64,000 bases of DNA from Halichondria panicea (GCF_963675165.1 NC_087392.1:14022-78021), one strand, 5' to 3'; positions 22,612-58,401 are shown, counted from the first letter of the stretch. A program made the numbers and translations. Notes: generated by a model not told the origin, from the sequence alone.

Positions 22612-24701
22612 TTATACCTCTTTCTCCACGGGATTGCTCATTCTGCTGCCATGTATGTCCAGTACAGTGAGTGTTGTATTGCTCTGACAGAGGACCTCAC
22701 ACAGTCTAGTCCCACCCTCATCTCCAAATGGATTGTCTCCAATTAGCAGCATATCGAGACCAGAGTTGACTGCCAGGCACTCTGCAAGTGCTGCCACTGC
22801 ATTGTCTCCCAACAGGTTGCTAGAGAGTAGTACTTTACGCAGCGATTGATTGTGTCTCAACATGTCAGCAATGCTCTTGCCTCCATCATCAGCTAAAGAG
22901 AAGGGAGTAGTGAGTCTGTCATAGCACTACCAAACACCTACTAAATGCAACTTTTAAATTTAAAATCGGACGTTCTTAGTAGTACAAGTACAACCCTCAA
23001 AGGCCTGATTCTAAAATACCCACATATAATTATAGACCAGGCTCTTCAATTGCTGATTCAATGCTATCAAACAGCTACTAGTTAGGGCACCTATTTGGTT
23101 TCCTCCTAATCCGAGGGATCGCAGAGTGGTGTTCAACTTGAGTGCTGCTGCTAGATGTCCCGCCCCCTCATCTCGTATCTCATTACCCCCCAAACCAATA
23201 GACTGCAGACTGCACACGTTGTCTGAGAGTGGAGATATTGTAATCTCTATATCTAATGTTTGTATGAACTATAATTATTATACTCATGCTGCTATAACTT
23301 CGTAAGCTCAGAATAGTGACGTAGAATCTTATTCCACAGTTTTAATTTTTCAGATTAGCTAATGCTCTAAAATGAATGCCCTGGATTAATCCGCTATACA
23401 GTACCTTGCAATAGAGTGGCTAGATGCAGTGCCCCCTTGTCCCCCAGCTCATTGCCCCCCAGACCCATCCACAGGAGACTGTTGTTGTCCTGTAGACTCT
23501 GGGAGAGAGCCCAAGCACCTTCTGCTCCAATGTGGTTACTACCCAGTCCAATCCACAGCAGTGTCTTGTTGCCCTACACACACACAACAATATTTAGACT
23601 ATAGAATAACAACATTCACAATATGGGATTGTTAGCATTCTGTTGGAGCTAGTAACGTGAACAGTGGACACAATTCCTCCCACCAAACTATACTTGTTGT
23701 ATACCCAAACACACACACACACACAGTAGTAATTGCACACACCATCAGTGTAACTGACACACTGACATGGCTCCTTGTAAATGTGTAGCGGACATTGTTA
23801 CCTGCAGCCCCTCTGCCAAGCGTTGTGCTCCTTGTCCTGAGATATCATTCTGCCAGAGAGACAATCCCTCCAGTTTAAAGTTGAGTTTGAGAGATCCTCC
23901 CAAATACTGAGCACTCACATCTGTCAGACTGTTGGTCCCCACTTCTAGAGTCACTAGTGTTCTGTTCCTACACAGAGCTGTAGAGTGGGTGAGTGTGAGA
24001 AGTGGAGTGGGCGGGAATGATAGCTCTTACCAGTGGCCAAAGCCTCAAGTCCTCTGTCTCCAATATCACAGTTATTGAGGGCAAGATGTTGTAGTACTTT
24101 GTTAGTCTCTAGTACAGCAGCTAGACTCTCTGCACCCTCAGGGCCAATCTGTGCAGCAAGTGAGTGGGTGTATGACTGGGAAAGGGGAAGGGCTGACTGA
24201 CTGACTGACTGTACCTGCTCATTGTCTGATAGGTTGAGTTTGGTGATGTTGCAAGTGAGGAAAGAGTTGCACAGTGTGTCTGATATGTGCTGAACACTCA
24301 CAGGGCCCACACCACAGCCTACCACACTCAGCTCCTCTACAACACTGCACAGGGTGGAAATAAGGTGATAGGCTTTAAAGTAAACACATCTCCCTGGAGA
24401 CACAGTATATTTTACATAAACAACTGAGTAGACATGGCAATAATCCTGTACATTAGAGGCCTACCTAGAGTCTATAGTGAGGTAGCTAGAGCCTTTAGTG
24501 AGGCAGCTAGAGCCGTTAGTGAGGCAGCTAGAGCCTATAGAGCCAGGTACCTGTTCCTTCTGAGAGCTTCAGAGAGCTTCCTAATAGACTTGTCTGATAC
24601 TTGCAAGCCCTCCACTTTGACCTCAGTAGTTCCACTACCATTCTCCTTAATATCCCTGCGCAGATGACTCAGTTTAGAGGCGTCCTGGCCCATGGCTGCA
24701 G
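22612..24701 (-). CDS. leucine-rich-repeat protein of ribonuclease-inhibitor / NLRC3-like type, multi-exon, with N-myristoylation-type N-terminus
   Basis: N-terminal exon MGQDASKLSHLRRDIKENGSGTTEVKVEGLQVSDKSIRKLSEALRRN|gtacct (start 24701). Downstream exons carry consecutive ~28-aa RNI-type LRRs (LNLSDNEQ..GAESLAAVLETNKVLQHLALNNCDIGDRGLEALA; SLWQNDISGQGAQRLAEGLQ; LGLGGNQIGA..; SIGLGGNEIRDEGAGHLAAALKLNTTL; LLIGDNPFGDEGGTRLCEVLCQSNTTLTVLDIHGSRMSN), ending ..PVEKEV* at ~22612. No NACHT/NB-ARC exon was found in the window. Confidence 0.65.
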
Positions 24702-24825
24702 CCTGGAATAGTGATCAGTGTGTTGTGTGTATCTTGTTGCTTGAGACTTGAGGACCTCCCACTAATAATAATCATATTCATATCATACCGATGGTCTAGG
24801 TCGGCGGGGGGGGGTGTGTCGACAC

Positions 24826-25895
24826 AGCATGGCAGAGCTAGAGGACAAAGAACAACTGAGTGACTCTCAGCTGTGTGAGGAGCTGGCAAGGCTGGGTAGT
24901 CAGTCTGGTCCCATCACTGACACAACACGGCTAGTATACCAGCGACACTTGCGGAGGCTGTACTCTGGAGAGCACCCAGCAGCCAAAGGTATTTTTATCA
25001 AGGAGTTTGTATATTTACGAATCTCTTGCCTATGAGTTATAGTTATTGACTGGTTGACTATAGTAAATGGCTTATAACAACCAATGCTGAGGGATCATAT
25101 TCAGTGCTAGGACACAGTGAATCAGTGAATCATATTATGCTGTTATTGTCCACGTACGTACAGAGCCCTTGTCTGGTGAGGCTGCCTGCAATGTCAGTGG
25201 AGCCAGTGACTCAGGTGAGATCACATGTCATACCACAGCAATGTCTTCCGATTTCAAATCTAAAACTTGTAGTGCTACAATAATTATGATGTGCATAGTT
25301 CAGCGATACAATTCCGGCCCAATATAATTATGTTAAGAATCAGGCCTGTTTTCAGAGCTAACTTTGAGAGGCCATAACTTGTGCTAGGAACATCAGATTT
25401 CAAATCTAAAAGTTGCATGTAGTAGCTGCTGTAGGGGACCAGCTTGTACCATAGCATCTTGTGTTCCCTTTAGGTAAGGATGTATTCATCAGCTATGGGC
25501 GAGGGACAGTGGTCGGTCTGGAGGAGCTCAAGAGTCACCTAGAGAGTGCTGGCTATACTGTGTGGCTGGACTGCCTGGATATGAGTGGTGGGAGTGACTG
25601 GCATACTGTCATTGGTGAGGCAGTCAGGAACTGTCGTTGTCTAGTAGCCCTCATCAGCACCAAGTACACTACCTCGAAGCACTGCAAGAATGAACTGTTC
25701 ATGGCCAACTCACTGGGCAAAGCTCTAATCCCTGTAGTGCTGGAGACAGTGGAGGACCCAGGAGTACAGTTTGCCATTTCTTCTCTTAATTGGATACTAG
25801 CCACTGATGGATTTAGACCGAAGACAATCGCTCAACAATTAATACAGGGACTGCAAACATTAGGCATTAGTCCTCGCCACATCATCTTTCCGTGA
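24826..25895 (+). CDS. LEM-domain exon spliced in frame to TIR-domain exon (putative LEM–TIR protein)
   Basis: Exon 24826-24989 encodes MAELEDKEQLSDSQLCEELARLGSQSGPITDTTRLVYQRHLRRLYSGEHPAAK(g), which matches the LEM consensus LSDxELRxEL..G..PGPIT.TTR..Y.KKL, and ends at gtattt in phase 1. Exon 25474-25895 follows a ccctttag acceptor in the matching phase: GKDVFISYGRGTVVGLEELKSHLESAGYTVWLDCLDM..CRCLVALISTKYTTSKHCKNELFMANSLGKALIPVVLE.. (TIR with a conserved glutamate in the CKNELF context). A possible small intervening exon lies at ~25153-25205. Confidence 0.55.
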
Positions 25896-26989
25896 TTTCT
25901 TGTGTGCAGTACAACATTTGTTATGACATTCAATGAACTTTGTTTACATGGTAAAACCACTTTGAAGTTTACATGTCCAGTTTTCCTCTGATATAACGCA
26001 ACAAAAAGAATTGAATAAACAGTTGTTTCTTTGATGACCCTTTACCACACAAGCTCGCCAACAGAATTTGTTTCTTTGATGACCTTTTACCAGACAAGCT
26101 TATCACCATATGGAGACGGCTGGTGAGGAAAAGCGTTCACTTGTCCTTCCCTCTAGCAGCTTCCACAAGGCTGGATGTCGGGTGGATACTCACCCAAAAG
26201 GCCAGCAGCAATGGATCATGAGGCAAAAAGCATCGCAGCGAGTACAAGTGAGTGGCTAGTCATGATCAAAAGTGGACCACCTAGTATAGTGTATAGGCTG
26301 CTTTAGATGGCTGGCATTCTAATAGATATCATTACTAGTGATCAAACTATACAGCCTCTGTATAAAATGCATACATTGCTACACATTTGTTGACCCGTTA
26401 CTTCATTGCGTACAGTGATGGAGAGCACGAGAGGGGCGGAGTCAGTGACAAGTTGCTATGACAACAGATGATGATGGAATTACAAGGTGACACTGTGGAA
26501 TTTGCGTACAACCCATTGGACGTCTTTCACTGCAGATAGAGGAACACAATTAAGAAATAGTGAGTACTGCCGCGTGCAGAGTGTGACTCTTTCCCCCACC
26601 AGAACTGTGATCTGAGCATGTCATGTGATAGGCCTTGTCTAGAGCTACAGAATGCATCTCTTAGTTTTGATATTGATCGATTTTTCATAAAGTTATGACC
26701 TCCAGAAATCAGCTGGCCGAACTGCATCAACAGGTGATGGATGAGTTACAATTGACACTGGTGGGAGATGGGGACGACCCATTGGACGTCTTCATGGCTG
26801 CCTGGTGTACAGGTGTGATAAGTGGACGTCTTGGTGTACAGGTGTGATAAGTGGGTCTGTAATTATTCTTGTCCATACAGACTGAAGTGGATGGACCAAT
26901 AGCCATCTAGATGTCAGTGACTCAGGTGCATGGCGTACCATTAGCAATGTGTAATACTGTGTTCACTTCAGGCATGCAAGAATCTACTG

Positions 26990-27130
26990 TTGATGACCAA
27001 CTCACTGGGCAAAGCTCTAATCCCTGTACTGTACTGCTGGAGACAGTGGAGGACCAGGAGTACACATTGTGGATACGTACTAGCCACTGATATATGGCTC
27101 ACACCAACATTTAATTACAGAGACTGTAAA
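26990..27130 (+). pseudogene. decayed partial copy of the TIR exon (corresponds to 25685-25870)
   Basis: tgatgaccaactcactgggcaaagctctaatccctgtactgtactgctggagacagtggaggaccaggagtacac.. matches the TIR exon (..ELFMANSLGKALIPVVLETVEDPGVQ..) at ~90% with frame-breaking indels, and the matching tail tagccactgat..ttaat(t)acag(a/g)gactg(t/c)aaa(c/t)attag follows. The rest of the TIR domain is absent. Confidence 0.5.
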
Positions 27131-27302
27131 TTAACATTAGCTAGGCTCACAGTAACCTTGTTGAATAATTATATCATCCCGTCATAATAATTATTTCAGC
27201 TTTGACTGTATTATTATCATAATTATGATGAATAATTTACACAAATTTGCAGTCAACATTTTGTACAAACAGCAATTGAGACAGACAACACACAAACAAG
27301 TG

Positions 27303-29700
27303 TCAGTCAGTTATATCTGCGTCCCTTCTTGGCCCAGCACTCTGGTTGAATAGTGAGGGCATCCACTGACACAGACAACGCTCTAGTGGGCACTTCTCTG
27401 AACTCCTTACGACCAGAGTTGTATCTAATGAGGGCAAAGGGCAAAGGTGGATACACAAGCAGTCAATACACACTCGTAGCTTACTTGTAGACATGAGCCA
27501 CCATGGCTGACTTGATGACCTTTGGACCATTCCCAAACAACTTGACCACCTGAAGAACGGTATGGAAATAATAGCCCATGCTTTTTCTTCGGAAATGGAT
27601 TAGAAAGCAATCACTAAACAATTAATTTTTTTTATTCTGACTTAAGAAATGAGGGCTCACAGTAGCAGGCCCATTACTGACGCACGCACACACACACCAT
27701 ACCTGGTCAGAGTCTGGTAAATAGGAATAGAGACCTCTGAACTTGAATCCAATGATATCTCTGAAGAGTACCATGACATGACTAGCAGAGCAGCTCTCCA
27801 ACTCCTACATGACACAAGTGAACACACACAGTGTGTAAGGTAAGCACTTACTGCCAGAGCTCTCTGCTTGGCTGACACATTAGGCTCCCCTGCTAGACAC
27901 ACATATGATATTGCATTCTTGATGAGCTTCTTGTTGGATTTAGCACGAGGGGCAATATATAGGTCAGGTCCAGTGTGTGTGATGATGTCCCCACCAGTGT
28001 GTCTCCGCTCCACAGTGGCCACACGTCGCACACGCTCACGCTCATATAGTCGAGCACGTACATCAGCCTCTCGTTGTTGCCGCAGTAACTCGTCGTTACC
28101 CTGGTAACCAACACATATAGTAGAAGACACAGTACACACATCAACACACAACCTTTGCAGTTCCTTGTGTCCATGGGTTGTCCTCGGGAGCGACTACAGG
28201 ACTGGGGTTGCTGGTTCCTTGTATGGGAGAGAAGGGGAACTTGCCGAGTGATGTGCCACTATCTTCCTTGAAAAGTGCTGAACAAATTAGTTTCCTTCTA
28301 TTCTCTCTAGCAAGATTATCTCTCCCTTTGATTCTCTCATACACTGCTAGCAATTGTTGCAGCTTCTCTGATGGCTCTGGAGTAGAGAGAGTAGAGGCCA
28401 TGGCAGGTGGGTATATTGAGAGATGGATGTGTCTAGATTCCTCTTCACCACTCTCTGGATGATCATTCAATGGAGGTTCAATGACTGTGAGGCCAGCAGC
28501 AAGGGCAGTCTGATGTGTAGACACTGTGAAGCTTCTGCGTAGCTCCTCTAAAGGAGGTGCTGAAGTTTTGAGTCGTGTGATTGAGAGGCGAGGTTGTAGG
28601 AATGTTTGTGGGGGGAGAGCATCAGCCGAGATGAGGTCATGACTGGACATAGATCCCCTCAGTGGGGCCTTAAACACAGTCACCGCTTGTGGGGGGAGAG
28701 CATCAGCCGAGATGAGGTCATGACTGGACATAGATCCCCTCAGTGGGGCCTTAAACACAGTACGTCTACTAAGAGAGATATCGGAGGTAGACTGGAGGGT
28801 TGTCCTGCTGTAGTGTTTGTTCTCTAGACAGTGGTATAGGTGTGCCACAAGGGCAGTAGTGTTAGTACTCAAGTGAGTTGTGGGTGATCGATGCAGTTCC
28901 TCTGGTAGAATGTGGAACCCTGGTCGATCCAAATGATGGTTGAGGAATGAAACAGCTTTTGTCAGATTATCCAATGCTTGTTGAGGCGAGAGTGATTTGC
29001 CAAGGTGGAAATCTGGGGAGAAGGTGTTCATGACATGTGATATAAGGACAGTTTACCTGACACTGTGAAGAGCTTGGGTGTGTAGTGCAGTAGTAAAGCA
29101 GGCAGGCACTGGCCAGCATGCAGAGCGTCTGTGAGAGTAGAGGCTGGTGTTCTCACTAGAGGCATCTTATTGAGCCAGAGTAATAGACCCTCTGAGACAG
29201 TACAGGGAAGGTCCTTGGAGGCGACTAGTTTACCCACACGTCTGTAATCAGAGACTAGATACTCAGTTAGTTAGAGGATGGGTTCTTACCGGATAGTCCT
29301 CACGATAGCTGGTAGGGTAGCTATGGACCTAGTATAGAGTGTCATGAGCCCCTCCATCACTGCCAAGTGGCTGGCCTGTATTGCAAGCATAGCTAATAAG
29401 AGTACACACATAGGTCCAGGTAGACACACTTGTCTGATTGGTGCTGTCTGCTCAAGGGATGAGCTGTTAACCTCCTCTGTCATGAACACGCCATGACGTG
29501 CAAGCTTATGCACTAGAGCAGAGAAGTCACTTAATGGTCTTTCCTTTGGCAGTATCCTCGTCAGTAGGGAGCAGTAGATCCCTGGATGAGTGAGTGCCTT
29601 CACCACTCTCCTACAAAGGCATCCCTCTGATGTCAGTGGATCCACCAATAGGCTGATAGCAGGATGATTTGATGGCAACATGCTGGCAACCCAGCGTAGG
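27303..29700 (-). CDS. CAMSAP-family microtubule minus-end binding protein (CH domain ... CKK domain), compact multi-exon gene; 5' end may extend to ~30000
   Basis: The N-terminal CH-domain region (29286-29681 and 29028-29237) reads LVHKLARHGVFMTEEV..PIRQVCLPGPMCVLLLAMLAIQASHLAVMEGLMTLY and DLPCTVSEGLLLWLNKMPLV..DALHAGQCLPALLLHYTPKLF, which resembles CAMSAP CH (..AMVFWINKVN.. DGAALLAVIHYYCP..). The C-terminal CKK-domain exons (27303-27900) read RAKSNKKLIKNAISYVCLAGEPNVSAKQ, then ..VKLFGNGPKVIKSAMVAHVYK, then RYNSGRKEFREVPTRALSVSVDALTIQPE..*. The central exon 28141-29031 is a long open S/T/P-rich linker. Confidence 0.65.
28605..28759 (-). repeat. perfect 81-bp in-frame tandem duplication inside the CAMSAP linker exon (27-aa duplication VFKAPLRGSMSSHDLISADALPPQ..)
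   Basis: Two identical 81-bp blocks sit at ~28605-28678 and ~28686-28759, and the reading frame is preserved. Confidence 0.85.
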
Positions 29701-30056: not shown

Positions 30057-30809
30057 ATGGAAGAGCTGGCTATGCGACTAGAATCAGAGAACAAGGCTCT
30101 CAAGAGAGAGATTGCTGAGTTAAAGAACTCCTGTGTGCACCGCAGCGAGCTGGATGAATTGAAACAAGATCTGGATCGACTCAAGAAATCCTCTCCTGAT
30201 AGTTTTGGATGTTCTCCTGGTATCTACTCACGAGTCAAGACAGTCAAGAAAGGTCGTCCCCAGTCACTACACGAGGTAACACAAGCAATGCAGGACCAGC
30301 TAGCCAAACCTCCACTCATCAGAGAATGCTCTTGTGGTTCACTACCTCCCTTCTATTTCACTGTGGAGAACTATGCTCATCATAAGAAACATTCTCTCAA
30401 ATGGTACAGTTCACCATTCTATAGTTGTCCAGGAGGGTATAAGATGTGTGTGGGAGTTAGTGCTGGTGGCTGTGGTGTGGGAGAAGGCACTCATGTCTCT
30501 GTACTCGTTCACTTCTTAAGAGGAGAGTTTGACACTTCTCTACAGTGGCCATTTCGAGGGACATTGGCCATTCACTTGCTCAATGAACGGCGAGACGGAT
30601 CTCATCATTGCCATGAGGTGGTGTTTGGTAAAGATGTGCCTGTGATGCAGTCTGGATGTGTGAGCGGAGGCTTTGAGAAGACCCTGGGTTATGGACTACC
30701 ATTGTTCATTGATCATGCTCAGTTGTCCTATAACCCGACACTGGATTGTGAGTATCTCAAGCATGACAGACTACGCTTTGTATTAGATATTGTGAAACTT
30801 GACAGTTAA
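30057..30809 (+). CDS. TRAF-like protein: coiled coil + MATH (TRAF-C) domain, single exon, no RING/zinc fingers in this ORF
   Basis: 250-aa ORF. The N-terminal heptad region reads MEELAMRLESENKALKREIAELKNS..ELDELKQDLDRLKK. The MATH domain reads FYFTVENYAHHKKHSLKWYSSPFYSCPGGYKMCVGVSAGGCGVGEGTHVSVLVHFLRGEFDTSLQWPFRGTLAIHLLNERRDGSHH..FVLDIVKL and matches the TRAF-C pattern ..S.PFYT...GYK.C.R.YLNGDG.GKGTH.SLFF..M.GE.D..L.WPF..KVTL.L.DQ. Confidence 0.75.
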   Translation: MEELAMRLESENKALKREIAELKNSCVHRSELDELKQDLDRLKKSSPDSFGCSPGIYSRVKTVKKGRPQSLHEVTQAMQDQLAKPPLIRECSCGSLPPFYFTVENYAHHKKHSLKWYSSPFYSCPGGYKMCVGVSAGGCGVGEGTHVSVLVHFLRGEFDTSLQWPFRGTLAIHLLNERRDGSHHCHEVVFGKDVPVMQSGCVSGGFEKTLGYGLPLFIDHAQLSYNPTLDCEYLKHDRLRFVLDIVKLDS

Positions 30810-30977: not shown

Positions 30978-34488
<3,511 letters not shown>

Positions 34489-43745: not shown

Positions 43746-46319
43746 TCACCATTGAGATACAGACACACTTATATATTCACCATAGGTGGATGAATTGCGC
43801 TGGTGAATGAGATGGATCCCTCCATTAGAGCAGATGCTATCTTGTCTTGGTCTACGATCATTCTCACTGCTCTGATACTCCTTCTTCATCTGGGAGAACA
43901 GGAAATACACCTTGGGGGCAAACAGACAGCACAGGGTGGTGGTGGCGCTCAGAGCTATCCCTAGGACAAGAGAACTTGTCTGAAAGATTGTACCTAGCTG
44001 CGAGGTGGCAAAATATGTAGGGATAAATGCCAGCCAGATAATGACAATGGTGTACAATGTGAGATTGATGAATTTGGCCTCATTGAAATTCTGAGGAACC
44101 TTGCGAGCTCGAAATGCAAAATATGTACTCAACAACAACAGAAATAGACTGTAACCAAATGATGCTGATATTCCAATATAGGGAGACTCGCCACATTTCA
44201 GCTCTGTACTGAAATCATTGTAGACCAATAGAATGCTTGGCGGTTCCACTACCAACCAGATCACAGCAATGACTACCTGTACAGCAATGAGCAGTAGTGT
44301 TAGTGCCACCTGGCTCTGTGGACTAATGAGGGAGGGGGTGCTAACTGAACCAGGTCTACGGTTGAATATACGATGAATACGATTAGTCTTAATCAACAGT
44401 GCACTATAGCAAAGAGTGAAACAGAAACCAAGCCCAAACCTTCGAATACCACACACAACAGCAGAGGGTCGAATAATGAAAGCAAAGGGAAGCAAATAAC
44501 ACAACAATAACCCAGTCAACAGGAAAGCACTCAACTCGCGACTAGAGCCCTTGACAATCTGATGCTTGTAGAACACAACAAAGATGATAATAACACTCAC
44601 TGTTAGTGCAATCCCAACAATAGCAACAACCATGATGATAATAGACCATGCATGAGACCATGTCAGGAAGGTGAGGGGTATGAGCTCACACTGGGTCATG
44701 TTCGTATTAGGGGCATAACCTTGTTCACATTCTCTACACTTCTCGCCAGTACTCACGTGCCTGTTGCCAAGACAACGCTTACAGATCCAACAACAAGCAG
44801 CTTGATCTGATACCCTCTCTGGATACTGCCCGCCCCCACACTTGACACTACACACTGACTCTGGCATGTCTCCATCAATCCACTCCACATCACTGTGTAG
44901 AGACAGCATTGCATTAGAGGCAGTCCACACACCCACCTGTCTGAACCTATGCTGCCCACTCTCCAACTGAAGGTTCTTAATGATGAAGCTGCCTTGTTCA
45001 TCTCCACTGGCATCAAATGAAATCTCTCGTGCAGAAGCTCCTGGTGAGAATGAAACATTGTGTAAATACGTTTGTAATAGTTCTCCATTCACTGCATTAG
45101 TCCGAGGGTCAGTCATATCACGACATAAACCATGGCCACCGGGACACAAGGCTCTCTGCATGTCAGTCATAGCATGGGCAAAAGCATACACAGCATCAAT
45201 AGCAAAGGGAACTTTACTGTTCTGACGATATTCATTGTTGACTGAGATCCTGTCATTGCCATCACACTCCCTCACACCTGCCACTGGTTGAAATGAGCAG
45301 TTGAACACATTCTCCCAATATTCGCTAAACCACGGATTGTCAGCATTGTTGAGAGGGGTCAGTCCAGTGAAGTAATCATCAAACTGTTGGCTGTGTTTGG
45401 CCTGAGGGAGAACAGCTAACATACCATGCGCCACAGGGTACAAGTGGGAGGGGATCTGGTCCCCCCAAGCATCACTGGCTATCCACGTTATGTTCTTGAG
45501 AGGTCCACTTCCTCTGCTCCTGTCTACAGCCTCCAGCACTTTCACAGCAGTGGCTAATTGTCCAAACAACACAGCCACAGATGCATTATTGACCCAGCTG
45601 CGTGACATGTCCAGCAACACCTCATCCAAGTCTTGACTAGTGGCCACCACTGGGACACTGATTTGAGTGGCTACACATGTCTCTGAACAGTTTCTACCCT
45701 CCAACGCTTTGAGCAATGCCTGAATTCCCACTGTACCATATACATCATCAGAGTGGAGGGCATACACATAGCTCCAGTTGAAGTGGTCAATCAGATCAGC
45801 CATGACTTGCGTCTGAAGAGAGTCAGGAGGTATCGTACGAAAGAAATAATCGAATCTAGTTCTGTCACTCAAAGTTTCTGCGGTGGAGGCATAACTGATT
45901 TGAGGGATCTTGAATAATCTGAGCAAACTAGCCACAGCAATAGAGACACTGCTTGAGGCTGCACCCACAACACCAGATATACCCAACACGCCGCGAGAGC
46001 TCACAAAGTGCAGGCTTTGTTCGAGGGCATAGTTAGACTGTGTGCAAGTGTCTCTAATCTCAAAGCTGAGTGTTATGCCAGGGAGAAGGGCTGTGTTGTT
46101 GTTGACCTTATCCACTGCTAATACCATTGCTTCAAGTCGTTGCAGTCCAAGGTCCAACACGTCACCACATTGGTTGTCCATGTTCTTGTGTACAGGGAAT
46201 AGAGCTCCTAAGATGACAATGTCTCCATGAGTAGGTAATGGTCCATTATAGACAGTGGCCCCAGCTAGGCACACAACACACACTAGTAACAAGGCAATCA
46301 TGATAGCTACTCTCCGCAT
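43746..46319 (-). CDS. class C (mGluR/CaSR-like) GPCR: signal peptide, Venus-flytrap ANF-receptor domain, cysteine-rich domain, 7TM; single exon
   Basis: 857-aa uninterrupted ORF. N-terminal signal MRRVAIMIALLLVCVVCLAGA. The VFT region reads ..GDIVILGALFPVH..SYASTAETLSDRTRFDYFFRTIPPDS... The cysteine-rich region reads CSVKCGGGQYPERVSDQAACCWICKRCLGNRHVSTGEKCRECEQGYAPNTNMTQCELIP. Seven hydrophobic segments follow, and the TM3 ..FGLGFCFTLCYSALLIKTNRIHRIF.. carries the class-C K/R-I-x-R-I-F signature. Confidence 0.85.
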   Translation of the reverse strand: MRRVAIMIALLLVCVVCLAGATVYNGPLPTHGDIVILGALFPVHKNMDNQCGDVLDLGLQRLEAMVLAVDKVNNNTALLPGITLSFEIRDTCTQSNYALEQSLHFVSSRGVLGISGVVGAASSSVSIAVASLLRLFKIPQISYASTAETLSDRTRFDYFFRTIPPDSLQTQVMADLIDHFNWSYVYALHSDDVYGTVGIQALLKALEGRNCSETCVATQISVPVVATSQDLDEVLLDMSRSWVNNASVAVLFGQLATAVKVLEAVDRSRGSGPLKNITWIASDAWGDQIPSHLYPVAHGMLAVLPQAKHSQQFDDYFTGLTPLNNADNPWFSEYWENVFNCSFQPVAGVRECDGNDRISVNNEYRQNSKVPFAIDAVYAFAHAMTDMQRALCPGGHGLCRDMTDPRTNAVNGELLQTYLHNVSFSPGASAREISFDASGDEQGSFIIKNLQLESGQHRFRQVGVWTASNAMLSLHSDVEWIDGDMPESVCSVKCGGGQYPERVSDQAACCWICKRCLGNRHVSTGEKCRECEQGYAPNTNMTQCELIPLTFLTWSHAWSIIIMVVAIVGIALTVSVIIIFVVFYKHQIVKGSSRELSAFLLTGLLLCYLLPFAFIIRPSAVVCGIRRFGLGFCFTLCYSALLIKTNRIHRIFNRRPGSVSTPSLISPQSQVALTLLLIAVQVVIAVIWLVVEPPSILLVYNDFSTELKCGESPYIGISASFGYSLFLLLLSTYFAFRARKVPQNFNEAKFINLTLYTIVIIWLAFIPTYFATSQLGTIFQTSSLVLGIALSATTTLCCLFAPKVYFLFSQMKKEYQSSENDRRPRQDSICSNGGIHLIHQRNSSTYGEYISVSVSQW

Positions 46320-55167: not shown

Positions 55168-56688
55168 CTAAAGTGGTTCTAGATTGATCTTGATACCATT
55201 CTTGCTTCGTAACACAACTTTAGGGGCTGTCTCAACTTTGTGTCCTTGTACTAGCGATAACTTGAATCTGTTTAGAATGGAGGCAATCACAATCCTCTCT
55301 TCATTCAGAGCAAAGTTCTGTCCAATGCAGTTTCGCTGACCACCAGAAAATGGAATGTAGGCATAGGGGTCACGACCCTCGCAGTTGCTGGGATGGAAAC
55401 GAAGAGGGTCATATTCATCAGGATTCTCCCAAGTTTCCGGGTGGCGATGGATCTGTCGTATACCAATGCCAAAGTTCATCCCCTTGGGAATGATATGGCC
55501 GTCCAGTATCATTTCCTCCGTTGCTTTTCTGAATATAAAGAAGACAGGAGGGTAGAGTCTCATGGCCTCCTTGATGGCCCACTGAGTGTACTTGAGCTCT
55601 TTAAGATCATCATAGTCAAGGGTGTCTCGTCCCTGAAGCACACTCCTCACCTCCTCACGTACTTTCTCCTGGGCCTCAGGATGCTTTGCTAGACAGTACA
55701 GGGTCCAGCACATCCCACTGGTCGTCGTGTCATGGCCCTCAAACATGAATGTGTCCACTTCATCTTGAATCTCTTGATCGGTGAGGCCATTGCCATCCTC
55801 GTCTCTAGCTATGAGCAGAACGTCCAGGAAATCCAGGTACTTCCCCTTCTTTCTAGTCCGCAGCTCACTCTCTGAGAAGCCAGTTTTGCCCACTTCCAAC
55901 TCTTCCTTTCTCTTTTGTACAACCATTCTCGAGTGACTGTGCACAAACTGACAAAGTTTGTTGTACTTGCGTCCAGTGGGTGTCAAGTTGAATAGCCAGT
56001 CAATTCTGCCAACCAAAGTAACGAATCTCTCTGTGGTCAGTTCTACTAGCTCTTGAACCGCCTCAATATATGGATGGCTTTGTGTAGTGTCTTGACAATT
56101 GCTGGAGAAACTGAAAGAGCACTGAAGGATGATATCCAGTGAGAGCAAACTAATGCTATTAAAAAGTTCAATTTGTTTATTTTTATCCATCAATGCTGTC
56201 CACTTGTCAAGTAATTCCTTAACACAATTGTTGTACACAGGCACATAAGGCTTGAGGATTTCGTAGTGAAAAGCTGGAGTTAGCAAACGACGATTTCTGG
56301 CCCATTTTGATCCTTTGGATATAAGAAGTCCATCGCCAAGCCAAGGTTTGAACAAACGATACTCGGCAGCGTTCTTAGGTTGCTTGAGCACCTTCCCTGC
56401 AAGACTGCAATGATAAATGTCGATGGACGGTTGGAATGGACCGATCCATGTTCTAACCATTTTCCAGCGCTTTTCTTTCACGGCATATTTCATAACTTTG
56501 TGATATTCCTCTTCAGATTCCAACATCTTTCGTACGTCAAGTAAGTTTCCAAACAGCCAATGTGCTGGAAGTCCTGGGATGTTTCTAACTGCCTTCCAAT
56601 GAACATAGTATCGAAACAGACGACCTGGAACATTGAAGATGAACAATCCGACCAGTAAGAGTGCAGAAATCACAAGCAAAGGCTCCAT
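55168..56688 (-). CDS. cytochrome P450, CYP4-clan, single exon (copy A, 506 aa)
   Basis: N-terminal membrane anchor MEPLLVISALLLVGLFIF; I-helix EGHDTTTSGM; ExxR EAMRLYPPV; PERF-like DPLRFHP; heme-binding FSGGQRNCIGQNFA. The CYP4-type motif EVDTFMFEGHDTT is present. Confidence 0.9.
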   Translation of the reverse strand: MEPLLVISALLLVGLFIFNVPGRLFRYYVHWKAVRNIPGLPAHWLFGNLLDVRKMLESEEEYHKVMKYAVKEKRWKMVRTWIGPFQPSIDIYHCSLAGKVLKQPKNAAEYRLFKPWLGDGLLISKGSKWARNRRLLTPAFHYEILKPYVPVYNNCVKELLDKWTALMDKNKQIELFNSISLLSLDIILQCSFSFSSNCQDTTQSHPYIEAVQELVELTTERFVTLVGRIDWLFNLTPTGRKYNKLCQFVHSHSRMVVQKRKEELEVGKTGFSESELRTRKKGKYLDFLDVLLIARDEDGNGLTDQEIQDEVDTFMFEGHDTTTSGMCWTLYCLAKHPEAQEKVREEVRSVLQGRDTLDYDDLKELKYTQWAIKEAMRLYPPVFFIFRKATEEMILDGHIIPKGMNFGIGIRQIHRHPETWENPDEYDPLRFHPSNCEGRDPYAYIPFSGGQRNCIGQNFALNEERIVIASILNRFKLSLVQGHKVETAPKVVLRSKNGIKINLEPL

Positions 56689-56865
56689 GTTTTAGCTCAG
56701 CTATAATTAATTATTATTTTGCCATTCAGCAGCCCCTCCCCTTTAGGCTTACCTTAGGGGAGGACTACTACTACTGCAATTTATAAGAATAAGAATCAAA
56801 TTTTCAGTGTTCCAACAAAAATATAATATAAACTCTAGAGCTAGAAGAATGGAATACATCACACA

Positions 56866-58401
56866 TTACAATGCAGACTCAATGTTCACTAAAATATCAT
56901 TCTTGCTTCGTAACACAACTTTAGGAACAGTCTCAACTTTGTGTCCTTGTACTAGCGATAACTTGAATCTATTTACAATGGAGGCAGTCACAATCCTCTC
57001 TTCATTCAGAGCAAAGTTCTGTCCAATGCAGTTTCGCTGACCACCAGAGAATGGAATGTAGGCATAGGGGTCACGACCCTCGCAGTTGCTGGGATGGAAA
57101 CGAAGAGGGTCATACTCATCAGGATTATCCCAAGTGTCCGGGTGGCGATGGATCTGTCGTATGGACAGGCCAACAGTCATACCTTTAGGAATCTCGTGGC
57201 CATCCAGAACAAGGTTTCCATCAGATTGGCGGAATATAAAGAAGACAGGAGGGTAGAGTCTCATGGCCTCCTTGATGGCCCACTGAGTGTACTTGAGCTC
57301 TTTAAGATCATCATAGTCGAGGGTGTCTCGTCCCTGAAGCACACTCCTCACCTCCTCACGCACTTTCTCCTGTGCCTCAGGATGCTTTGCTAGACAGTAC
57401 AGGGTCCAGCACATTCCACTGGTCGTCGTGTCATGGCCTTCAAACATGAACGTGTCTACTTCATCTCTAATCTCGAGGTCAGTCAGTCCCTCTCCAGTCT
57501 CATCTTCAGCAGTGAGTAGAATGTCGAGAAAATCTAAATGTCTCTTTTGTCGTGTTTTAGCTAACAGTTCTTCTCGTTTCAACACTTTCTCTCCTGAATC
57601 AAGGCCCAGAAACTCCTTTCTTTCCTTTATAACCCCCTCAGAGTATTGATGAGCTTTGTTGCAGGCATCACGGAATTGTCTCCCCTCAGACGTGAGGTAG
57701 TACAGTATATCAATCCTCTTGAGTGGTGATGTGAATCGTGTTGCAGTCAGTTCAACAAGGTCTTGTACTGTTCTAATGTACGGGTGAGCAGTGGTGGCAG
57801 TTTGACAGTTACTCTGAAAGCTAAACGCACATTGCATTATCACGTCCAGTGAGAGCAGCCCGATTGAATCGAAGAGCTTCACCGACTGACCACCTTCAGC
57901 CGGTGAAACACTCCACTTGTCCAATAGTACCTCTGTACAGTCGTTGTAGATACCCACATAGCCTTTGAGGATATCGTAATGGAAAGCTGGAGTGAGGAGG
58001 CGACGATTCCTGAACCATTTGCTCCCTCCAGAGATGAGAAGTCCATCCCCTAGCCATGGCTTGATGAGACCATACACCTCACTATCCTTGGAGGCCTTGA
58101 GCACAGGACCGACAAGAGAGCAATGCTGAATAGCAACCATCGGAAAGAATGGGCCCAGCCAACTCCTAGTCAACTTGTGCTTGTTCTGAAATATGAAGTT
58201 AGTCCATTTCTTGGTAGTTTCTTCATCCAGATTGATTTGATGTAGGTTTCCCCATAGCCAGTGTGTTGGCCATCCAGGCAGCGCCCTCACTGCATTGCAC
58301 TGTATGTAATAGCCATAGAGCGCTGGTGGGAGCTTTAGAAGGAGCACTGCAATCACGAGAGTGGCTGCAGCTACACACAACAGGGACACAACATACTCCA
58401 T
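56866..58401 (-). CDS. cytochrome P450, CYP4-clan, single exon (copy B, 511 aa), tandem paralogue of copy A
   Basis: Same motif set as copy A. The C-terminal ~190 codons are ~97-98% identical at the DNA level to copy A (e.g. 56891-57150 vs 55201-55460), whereas the N-terminal halves are strongly diverged. Only ~177 bp separate the copy B stop from the copy A start. Confidence 0.9.
   Translation of the reverse strand: MEYVVSLLCVAAATLVIAVLLLKLPPALYGYYIQCNAVRALPGWPTHWLWGNLHQINLDEETTKKWTNFIFQNKHKLTRSWLGPFFPMVAIQHCSLVGPVLKASKDSEVYGLIKPWLGDGLLISGGSKWFRNRRLLTPAFHYDILKGYVGIYNDCTEVLLDKWSVSPAEGGQSVKLFDSIGLLSLDVIMQCAFSFQSNCQTATTAHPYIRTVQDLVELTATRFTSPLKRIDILYYLTSEGRQFRDACNKAHQYSEGVIKERKEFLGLDSGEKVLKREELLAKTRQKRHLDFLDILLTAEDETGEGLTDLEIRDEVDTFMFEGHDTTTSGMCWTLYCLAKHPEAQEKVREEVRSVLQGRDTLDYDDLKELKYTQWAIKEAMRLYPPVFFIFRQSDGNLVLDGHEIPKGMTVGLSIRQIHRHPDTWDNPDEYDPLRFHPSNCEGRDPYAYIPFSGGQRNCIGQNFALNEERIVTASIVNRFKLSLVQGHKVETVPKVVLRSKNDILVNIESAL

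What the first reader, a model, noticed from the sequence alone, without database searches (positions are those of the whole stretch)
24826..25895. In-frame LEM-domain–TIR-domain exon junction (possible novel domain architecture)
Exon 24826-24989 encodes a canonical LEM motif, LSDSQLCEELARLGSQSGPITDTTRLVYQRHLRRL. In animals the LEM fold binds BAF at the nuclear lamina. The exon ends at a GT donor in phase 1. The next strong acceptor (ccctttag, 25473) opens a TIR domain in exactly the compatible phase, DVFISYGRG...CKNELF..., so a two-exon transcript gives an uninterrupted LEM–TIR protein. The TIR domain has the compact glutamate-bearing architecture of SARM1/bacterial NADase-type TIRs rather than TLR/MyD88 TIRs. 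A TIR tethered to a chromatin/lamina-binding module is not a commonly described combination. It would suggest a nuclear-envelope-localised TIR signalling or NAD-hydrolysing protein.
Basis: partly seen in the sequence, partly recalled or inferred. Interest (0 to 1): 0.75.

Follow-up and report, generated by a model that had tools for sequence, protein, structure and literature searches.

The report
Sponge LEM–TIR fusion gene
This is a real, already annotated but unstudied gene of the sponge Halichondria panicea. It joins a LEM domain, the module that docks onto the DNA-binding protein BAF, to a TIR immune-signalling domain. The same fusion is kept in several other sponge-derived genomes, which hints at a chromatin- or DNA-linked TIR pathway in early animals.

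Summary
The + strand carries a three-exon gene: 24829-24988, 25164-25214 and 25474-25895. All introns are GT..AG and phase 1.

Its 210-aa product is identical to RefSeq XP_064404432.1, "uncharacterized protein LOC135349756 [Halichondria panicea]". Pfam calls LEM (46 bits, cut-off 24) and TIR_2 (78 bits, cut-off 28).

The fusion is not a one-off. Seven distinct loci from sponge-derived assemblies have a LEM exon, a phase-1 intron and a TIR exon in the same layout. LEM and TIR are under purifying selection, and the linker is not. Two lineages add a C-terminal SAM domain.

The protein has no membrane segment, so it is a soluble LEM protein, not an inner-nuclear-membrane one.

A 2021 H. panicea transcriptome paper lists LEM among the domains drawn in its receptor figure, so the architecture was probably seen before but never analysed. 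Verdict: a real, conserved, uncharacterised variant of TIR proteins of moderate interest.

The parts
24829..24988 (+). Exon 1: start codon plus the LEM domain (residues 1-53 and the first base of codon 54). The Pfam LEM match covers residues 8-44 (nt 24850-24960).
   Evidence: It aligns to the BAF-binding LEM of LAP2 (residues 111-150) and to emerin, not to the LEM-like domain. The donor is AAAG|GT.
24989..25163 (+). Intron 1 (GT..AG, phase 1)
   Evidence: The position and phase are conserved in L005, L006, L010, L009/L013, L014 and L015.
25164..25214 (+). Exon 2: a 51-nt linker mini-exon (EPLSGEAACNVSGASDS), phase 1-1
   Evidence: It is included in the exact RefSeq product. Counterparts of 69, 54, 45 and 93 nt, all multiples of 3, occur in L005, L006, L010 and L009/L013. 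It is predicted disordered, and pN is about equal to pS.
25215..25473 (+). Intron 2 (GT..AG, phase 1)
25474..25895 (+). Exon 3: the TIR domain plus the stop codon. The Pfam TIR_2 match covers residues 74-189 (nt 25482-25829). The conserved Glu E144 is at 25692-25694, and the stop TGA at 25893-25895.
26014..26019 (+). AATAAA polyadenylation signal, 119 nt after the stop. It marks the likely 3' end, so no SAM exon follows in this species.
   Evidence: pattern scan; tblastn with SAM queries finds nothing in the window
24694..24828 (.). A 135-bp spacer between the ATG of the divergent LRR gene (minus strand, ATG at 24693) and the ATG of the LEM-TIR gene. It is a putative shared (bidirectional) promoter region.
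   Evidence: The same head-to-head LRR neighbour occurs in L005 and L015. The promoter function is inferred.

Best explanation
The region is a bona fide three-exon gene of the demosponge Halichondria panicea (LOC135349756). It encodes a small soluble protein: an N-terminal LEM domain, a ~25-residue disordered linker, and a C-terminal TIR domain. It belongs to a family so far found only in sponge-derived assemblies. In that family a BAF-binding-type LEM domain is fused to a TIR_2-type TIR, and some lineages add a C-terminal SAM domain.

Proposed mechanism (inferred, not shown). The LEM domain docks the protein onto BAF, the dimeric dsDNA-bridging protein found on chromatin, at the reforming or ruptured nuclear envelope, and on foreign cytosolic DNA. 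Dense BAF-DNA arrays, helped by SAM in the longer orthologues, bring TIR domains together. TIR domains become active only when they self-assemble. The output would be either NAD+ cleavage through the conserved Glu (as in SARM1) or recruitment of other TIR adaptors (as with MyD88). The gene would thus couple a chromatin or DNA-exposure cue to TIR signalling or cell death.

Shown here: the gene structure, the two domains, their conservation, the purifying selection, and the absence of a membrane anchor. Inferred: BAF binding, assembly-driven activation, and the nature of the TIR output.
For: Gene and architecture:
- The exact 210-aa product equals RefSeq XP_064404432.1. P0001 places the window in H. 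panicea assemblies.
- LEM scores 46 bits and TIR_2 78 bits.

Conservation:
- LEM plus TIR occurs with the same phase-1 intron in L005, L006, L010/L011, L009/L013, L014 and L015/L016. All junctions are GT..AG and in frame.
- In the five conceptual orthologues scanned with Pfam, LEM scores 38.7-56.3 bits and TIR_2 76-85 bits.
- Synteny is shared: an aldo-keto reductase gene, an LRR gene, and a CAMSAP or MutS gene.

Selection:
- Non-synonymous difference pN is 0.17-0.40 in LEM and 0.16-0.41 in TIR, against synonymous pS of 0.55-0.98. In the linker pN is about equal to pS.

LEM type:
- It aligns to the BAF-binding LEMs of LAP2 and emerin.
- The sponge sequences keep L15, G27-P28, T33-R34 and mostly Y37. 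These lie within emerin mutation sites m11, m24, m30 and m34, described as conserved residues shared with LAP2beta (PMC3810338).
- Tested LEM domains bind BAF, a conserved metazoan dsDNA-binding protein (PMC3198171).

TIR:
- The best PDB sequence hits are SARM1, with Glu aligned to E642. Glu is invariant.
- The TIR model is confident. Foldseek's top hits are SARM1, SPARTA and plant TNL TIRs.
- The C-terminal extension in L009/L013/L014 is a SAM domain (profile against PDB E=6.7e-6, including SARM1 SAM hits).

Precedents:
- A soluble LEM protein can carry an effector enzyme: LEM-3/ANKLE1 (PMC3285610).
- BAF and the LEM protein ANKLE2 restrict vaccinia virus (PMC12724269).
Against: - No experiment or transcript read was available here. 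Expression rests on the RefSeq model and on an indirect reading of a figure legend (PMC8242945).
- BAF binding is untested, and I could not check that H. panicea encodes BAF.
- The aromatic residue four positions before the Glu is Trp in SARM1 (from my reading of the alignment); own knowledge says the same holds for plant TIRs. It is His in the Halichondria-like sequences and Tyr in the others.
- One orthologue (L006) has an in-frame stop in the LEM exon.
- The H. panicea protein lacks SAM, so any oligomerisation must come from elsewhere.
- Invertebrate genomes hold many lineage-specific TIR domain combinations, so a fusion alone does not prove a dedicated pathway.
Confidence: 0.45

Rival explanations
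1. Non-enzymatic adaptor. The TIR acts only as a scaffold, like MyD88 or MAL. It links a LEM-bound nuclear or chromatin partner to the sponge TLR-like/MyD88 pathway, or sequesters TIR adaptors, without cleaving NAD+.
Against: The TIR_2 model scores far higher than the TLR-type TIR model (78 against 29 bits). SARM1 has the best sequence E-value and the highest identity, 26%. Glu is invariant even when bacterial TIRs are included. SAM occurs in orthologues, as in SARM1.
Confidence: 0.35
2. Housekeeping nuclear-envelope or mitotic function. The protein would be a soluble LEM protein acting in nuclear reassembly or in DNA-damage and chromatin-bridge surveillance, comparable to ANKLE1/LEM-3 or ANKLE2. 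The TIR would be a cell-death or NAD-metabolic module rather than a pathogen-response element.
For: The known soluble LEM proteins work in these processes (LEM-3 in the DNA-damage response, LEM-4 in BAF dephosphorylation; PMC3285610 and PMC3585021). The gene is single-copy and syntenic across sponges rather than expanded. Both domains are under strong purifying selection rather than diversifying.
Against: TIR domains are overwhelmingly tied to immunity or cell death. The conserved neighbours are an RNI/NLR-type LRR gene, head-to-head, and a TRAF-like MATH gene. A decayed tandem TIR copy lies next door, which fits the turnover typical of immune loci.
Confidence: 0.15
3. Annotation artefact. The LEM exon and the TIR exon belong to separate transcripts, or the LEM exon is untranslated, and the fusion exists only in silico.
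For: No transcript reads were examined here. A scan of JGI metagenome contigs for the exon 1/2 junction found nothing, though this collection is unlikely to hold the sponge's mRNA. The exon-only ORFs (P0001, P0074) are what ORF callers report.
Against: Seven loci keep the LEM exon 30-800 bp upstream of the TIR exon, on the same strand, always with a phase-1 junction and no stop codons except in one. The LEM exon shows coding-type constraint. The TIR exon has no in-frame ATG of its own upstream of the domain, apart from a GTG-start ORF-caller artefact. RefSeq joins the exons. A transcriptome-based figure lists LEM among the receptor domains.
Confidence: 0.04

Closest known systems
SARM1 / TIR-1 (ARM-SAM-SAM-TIR NAD+ hydrolase)
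   Same: It is the best sequence match in the PDB for the TIR (E=2e-4, 26% identity), with the catalytic E642 aligned to E144. The TIR is of the Pfam TIR_2 type. Orthologues of the sponge protein also carry a SAM domain, which gives weak profile hits to SARM1 SAM.
   Different: There is no ARM autoinhibitory domain. SAM, where present, is single and C-terminal to the TIR. The N-terminus is a LEM domain. The residue at -4 from the Glu is His or Tyr instead of Trp. The H. panicea protein has no SAM at all. It is not an orthologue.
ANKLE1 / C. elegans LEM-3 (LEM + GIY-YIG nuclease) and other soluble LEM proteins (LAP2alpha, ANKLE2)
   Same: These are soluble proteins in which a LEM domain delivers an effector domain to BAF or chromatin (PMC3285610; PMC3198171 for LAP2alpha). 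Like them, the sponge protein has no transmembrane segment.
   Different: The effector here is a TIR domain, not a nuclease, ankyrin repeats or a coiled coil. No LEM+TIR protein is discussed in the papers searched.
Inner-nuclear-membrane LEM proteins (emerin, MAN1/LEM2, LAP2beta)
   Same: The LEM domain is of the same BAF-binding type, with the conserved L, GP(I/V), TR and Y positions.
   Different: There is no transmembrane helix, no MSC domain and no lamin-binding region.
MyD88 / MAL-type bipartite TIR adaptors, and invertebrate TIR fusions such as oyster TIR-STING
   Different: The targeting module is LEM, not a death domain, a lipid-binding motif or STING.
Unnamed N-terminal-domain-TIR-SAM proteins from metagenome and SRA assemblies (P0018, P0168, P0170, P0171)
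   Same: They are the closest TIR relatives outside the LEM-bearing set (38-52% identity). They share the motifs DIFxSY, SVWLD, GSDWH and YCKNEL and a C-terminal SAM. They intermingle with the LEM-TIR sequences in a rough neighbour-joining tree.
   Different: A ~190-aa unannotated N-terminal region replaces the LEM domain. Their source organisms are unknown.

Membership tests
LEM domain (Pfam PF03020) | The profile match exceeds the curated gathering score. | tested here: met
   46.3 bits against a cut-off of 24, E=3e-12. Five orthologues score 38.7-56.3 bits.
LEM domain (Pfam PF03020) | A two-helix fold, with the conserved G-P-(I/V) loop and the T-R / Y positions of BAF-binding LEMs. | tested here: met
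   The AF2 model has helices at 12-24 and 31-45, at only moderate confidence (pLDDT ~70). G27, P28, T33, R34 and L15 are invariant in 8 sequences. It aligns with the LAP2 LEM at 111-150 and with emerin, and scores -1.0 bits on the LAP2 LEM-like domain.
LEM domain (Pfam PF03020) | Direct binding to BAF. | not testable with these tools
   This needs a pull-down or ITC with sponge BAF.
Inner-nuclear-membrane LEM proteins (emerin/MAN1/LAP2beta) | A transmembrane anchor (and an MSC domain for MAN1/LEM2). | tested here: not met
   The maximum 19-residue hydropathy is 0.63-1.38 in all 8 proteins, always inside the TIR core. No other Pfam domain was found.
TIR domain (Pfam PF13676 TIR_2 / PF01582 TIR) | A profile match above the gathering score, and the flavodoxin-like TIR fold. 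| tested here: met
NAD+-cleaving TIRs (SARM1, plant TNL, bacterial AbTir/ThsB/SPARTA) | The catalytic glutamate at the position of SARM1 E642. | tested here: met
   E144 aligns with E642. It is invariant in alignments A1 and A5, including bacterial TIRs. Own knowledge: many non-enzymatic TLR TIRs also have a Glu here, so this feature is necessary but not sufficient.
NAD+-cleaving TIRs (SARM1, plant TNL, bacterial AbTir/ThsB/SPARTA) | The aromatic Trp four residues before the Glu (SARM1 W638), and overall closer similarity to NADase TIRs than to scaffold TIRs. | tested here: inconclusive
NAD+-cleaving TIRs (SARM1, plant TNL, bacterial AbTir/ThsB/SPARTA) | Measured NAD+ hydrolase or cyclase activity. 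| not testable with these tools
   This needs a biochemical assay.
SARM1 orthologue | The ARM - SAM - SAM - TIR domain order. | tested here: not met
   There is no ARM domain. There is no SAM in the window, either as protein or as a DNA remnant. In L009/L013/L014 a single SAM follows the TIR.

The most novel reading that the evidence does not exclude
LEM-TIR(-SAM) is the effector of a BAF-dependent DNA alarm in early-branching animals. BAF coats foreign, viral or mislocalised self dsDNA, or chromatin exposed at a ruptured nuclear envelope. It recruits LEM-TIR at high local density. The TIRs then assemble into an active NADase or nucleotide-signal synthase, which triggers NAD+ collapse or a second messenger. 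This would be a route from DNA exposure to TIR immunity or cell death that is independent of cGAS-STING, built from a nuclear-envelope module.
Probability: 0.15. Interest if true: 0.85.

Novelty: new variant of a known kind. Interest (0 to 1): 0.55.

Why it matters
TIR domains are the shared currency of immunity in bacteria, plants and animals, and what sets them off is fixed by the domain they are fused to. Here the partner is a LEM domain, whose only known ligand class is BAF, or DNA for the LEM-like forms. BAF marks chromatin, nuclear-envelope ruptures and foreign cytosolic DNA, and it restricts DNA viruses.

A LEM-TIR(-SAM) protein conserved and selected across sponges would be a simple, testable link between DNA or chromatin exposure and TIR signalling in an early-branching animal lineage. 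It would also be a new kind of soluble LEM effector alongside the nuclease ANKLE1.

If the TIR is an NADase, it would join SARM1 among the few animal TIR enzymes, and it would come with a different trigger logic. If it is a scaffold, it would point to a nuclear input into the sponge MyD88 pathway. Either way the protein is small (210 aa) and easy to express.

Tried and rejected
- Single-sequence AlphaFold gave an unusable model (pLDDT 37.6). It was replaced by a run with a 20-sequence alignment.
LEM-only ORFs were misaligned by MAFFT onto the TIR, so the LEM part of the model had no alignment depth.
- The word-indexed homology searches returned few hits (5, 16 and 18). They found no other annotated full-length LEM-TIR protein. 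Sensitivity there is limited, and full-length models can hide inside clusters represented by exon ORFs, as happened for this gene.
- The 1.84-billion-representative search listed only the top 150 of 17,383 hits. None showed a LEM-plus-TIR match apart from the gene's own exon ORF.
- A scan of JGI metagenomes for the exon 1/2 junction found nothing. A family scan there returned almost only bacterial TIRs and no new LEM-TIR.
- The AFDB Foldseek library was unavailable.
- Supplementary files of PMC8242945 hold no LEM or PF03020 entry, so the transcript ID behind the figure could not be recovered.
- The species behind L005, L006, L009-L016 could not be named.
- I considered and rejected three ideas: an inner-nuclear-membrane protein (no transmembrane segment), a SARM1 orthologue (wrong architecture), and two separate genes (conserved phase-1 junctions plus the RefSeq model).

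Full report
**What is in the sequence.**
The window is eukaryotic DNA with about 45% G+C. On the + strand an ATG at 24829 opens an exon that runs to 24988 and ends AAAG|GT. It encodes MAELEDKEQLSDSQLCEELARLGSQSGPITDTTRLVYQRHLRRLYSGEHPAAK.

A 51-nt exon follows at 25164-25214. It has an AG acceptor and a GT donor, and encodes EPLSGEAACNVSGASDS. A third exon starts after the acceptor AG at 25472-25473, and the stop TGA is at 25893-25895. It encodes the TIR domain (GKDVFISYGRG...CKNELF...).

Exon 1 is 160 nt and exon 2 is 51 nt, so both junctions are phase 1. Both the three-exon product (210 aa) and the two-exon product (193 aa) are open. An AATAAA lies 119 nt after the stop.

Its guessed mini-exon is about 10 bases off.

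**Is it more than chance?**
Pfam gives LEM (PF03020) at 46.3 bits against a cut-off of 24, E=3e-12. It gives TIR_2 (PF13676) at 78.3 bits against 28, and TIR (PF01582) at 28.9 bits against 21.3.

The LEM part aligns with the BAF-binding LEM of LAP2 (residues 111-150) and with emerin. It does not align with the DNA-binding LEM-like domain of LAP2.

**Whose gene is it?**
The TIR-exon ORF (P0001) is found identically in the Halichondria panicea assembly GCA_020423275.1 and in three other sponge-derived assemblies (PMC8994243).

An exact-sequence look-up shows that the 210-aa three-exon product is RefSeq XP_064404432.1, "uncharacterized protein LOC135349756 [Halichondria panicea]". The 193-aa two-exon product is not on record. 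An independent eukaryotic annotation pipeline therefore joins exactly these three exons, and nobody has named the protein.

A 2021 study of the H. panicea immune repertoire screened a de novo transcriptome for TIR (PF01582) proteins and drew their domain models. [quoted passage not shown] The figure itself and the transcript ID are not available to me. I therefore read this as probable, not certain, prior sighting and transcript support. The text does not discuss the architecture, and no other paper in the library combines the two domains meaningfully.

**Conservation.**
By following homologues of the TIR and LEM ORFs to their contigs, I reconstructed the same gene at seven distinct loci:
- the window itself;
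- L005 (ERZ25070530);
- L006 (GCA_008849205.1);
- L010/L011 (GCA_022599445.1);
- L009 and L013 (ERZ27314237 and a Tara metagenome);
- L014 (ERZ25069764);
- L015/L016 (ERZ25069786).

In every case a LEM exon ends in phase 1 at a GT donor just after the motif RRLS(S/T)G..., and the TIR exon begins in phase 1 after an AG. Five loci have a mini-exon between them, of 51, 69, 54, 45 or 93 nt, always a multiple of three. Two loci splice LEM directly to a longer TIR exon.

All conceptual products are open. The exception is L006, which has a TAA inside the LEM exon (a pseudogene, an allele or an assembly error). Pfam calls LEM (38.7-56.3 bits) and TIR_2 (76-85 bits) in all five conceptual orthologues that I scanned.

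Gene order is shared. An aldo-keto reductase gene lies upstream and an RNI-type LRR gene sits head-to-head. Downstream there is a CAMSAP gene in the Halichondria-like loci or a MutS gene in the others. The species behind most loci could not be named. That they are sponges is inferred from this synteny and from the sample types.

**Selection.**
Synonymous sites between these loci are near saturation (pS 0.55-0.98). Non-synonymous differences are 0.17-0.40 in LEM and 0.16-0.41 in TIR, whereas in the linker pN is about equal to pS. Both domains are therefore maintained as protein, and the linker is only a tether. The AlphaFold model agrees: residues 49-67 are disordered.

LEM positions L15, L19, G23, G27, P28, T30, T33, R34, V36 and L41 are invariant in the eight sequences. 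Several of them lie within the emerin sites mutated in m11, m24, m30 and m34 (PMC3810338).

**A SAM domain in some orthologues.**
L009/L013 and L014 continue about 70 residues past the TIR. A profile of this extension hits SAM domains in the PDB: best E=6.7e-6, with Scm, liprin, polyhomeotic and SARM1 SAM among the hits. The window has no such exon or remnant.

The nearest non-LEM relatives are N-terminal-domain-TIR-SAM proteins, which carry an unannotated N-terminal region. In a rough neighbour-joining tree without support values, they intermingle with the LEM-bearing sequences. The broader family is therefore TIR-SAM with exchangeable N-termini. The H. panicea gene is a short LEM-TIR form.

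**What kind of TIR?**
Sequence evidence points toward SARM1:
- It is the best PDB hit (E=2e-4, 26% identity).
- E144 aligns with the catalytic E642.
- TIR_2 scores far above TIR.
- The Glu is invariant in the family, even when bacterial TIRs are included.

The residue four before the Glu is Trp in SARM1 (my reading of the alignment). It is His in the Halichondria-like sequences and Tyr in the others. From my own knowledge, many TLR TIRs also keep a Glu at this position.

**Localisation.**
None of the eight proteins has a hydrophobic stretch compatible with a membrane helix, and no further domain is detected. This is a soluble LEM protein, like LAP2alpha or ANKLE1, not an emerin/MAN1-type inner-membrane protein. 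"Nuclear-envelope-localised" is therefore not supported by the sequence. The supportable inference is recruitment to wherever BAF is.

**Most likely mechanism (inferred).**
[quoted passage not shown] BAF and the LEM protein ANKLE2 restrict vaccinia virus (PMC12724269). LEM-3/ANKLE1 shows that LEM can deliver an enzymatic effector to chromatin (PMC3285610). By established knowledge, TIR domains act when they are brought together.

I therefore propose that LEM docks the protein on BAF-DNA. Clustering there, reinforced by SAM in the longer orthologues, assembles the TIRs. The assembled TIRs then either cleave NAD+ or nucleate other TIR adaptors. I put about 0.45 on this general model. The enzyme and scaffold outputs are roughly equally likely. 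About 0.15 goes to a non-immune nuclear-envelope or DNA-damage role, and about 0.04 to an annotation artefact.

**Novelty and score.**
The gene is annotated and its architecture has probably been drawn once. However, it has never been analysed, and no LEM-TIR protein is described in the literature I could search.

New here are four results: the fusion is conserved across several sponge-derived genomes; both domains are under purifying selection; the fusion is related to TIR-SAM proteins; and the protein is soluble.

Lineage-specific TIR fusions are common in invertebrates, which tempers surprise. The BAF connection gives a concrete, testable hypothesis. I rate it a new variant of a known kind, with interest 0.55.

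Noticed in passing
window 26975-27064 (compare L007 1570-1905, L008 1648-1983): This is a ~90-bp remnant (83.5% identity) of a second, tandem TIR exon. That exon is nearly intact (P0002, P0004) in a related Halichondria-like metagenome, probably from the White Sea sponge study PMC8777954. L007/L008 are collinear with window 26146-29000. No LEM exon precedes that copy, and in H. panicea the copy has decayed.
   Followed up: partly
window 22612-24693, minus strand: An RNI/NLR-type LRR-only gene (Pfam LRR_6, 98 bits). Its best PDB matches are LRRC34-like ciliary LRR proteins, NOD2 and ribonuclease inhibitor. It lies head-to-head with the LEM-TIR gene, with the two ATGs 136 bp apart. The same arrangement occurs in L005 and L015. 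Its N-terminus MGQDASK resembles an N-myristoylation motif (own knowledge, untested). The pair may be co-regulated.
   Followed up: partly
window 30057-30809 (+); L005 10419-11186; L007 5552-6292: A TRAF-like MATH-domain ORF lies a few kb downstream, beyond the CAMSAP gene, and keeps that position in two related loci. Three immune-type genes (LRR, TIR, TRAF-MATH) therefore lie within ~8 kb.
   Followed up: no
L006 / L017 nt 433-435 (GCA_008849205.1, VSKX01091235.1): There is an in-frame TAA within the LEM exon (YSR*LQRL), where the other species have K, H or Y. The TIR exon is intact. A second TIR contig from the same assembly (L018) differs slightly. This could be a pseudogene, an allele or an assembly error.
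   Followed up: no
proteins P0018, P0021, P0022, P0168, P0170, P0171 (metagenome/SRA assemblies): These are close TIR relatives with a conserved, unannotated ~190-aa N-terminal region (LWPYMS.DLQ.RLLG..HGKLSVKK ... CE.FFL.L...G.SPLL..W..DG) in place of LEM, followed by TIR; a C-terminal SAM or SAM-like tail is evident in four of them (P0018, P0168, P0170, P0171). Pfam finds nothing in the N-terminal region. Their source organisms are unknown.
   Followed up: no
L009 2256-3533, L013 5444-6714, L014 4054-5786: These orthologous loci encode a longer LEM-linker-TIR-SAM protein (313-322 aa). The linker of L009/L013 contains basic patches (ARKRS, TPKRD) that could be nuclear localisation signals.
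   Followed up: partly
window 55168-58401 (-), 43746-46319 (-), 32100-32700: The window also holds two tandem cytochrome P450 (CYP4-like) ORFs of 506 and 511 aa, an 857-aa class-C GPCR-like ORF in a single exon, and long (GT/CA)n microsatellites inside a WD40-gene intron.
   Followed up: no
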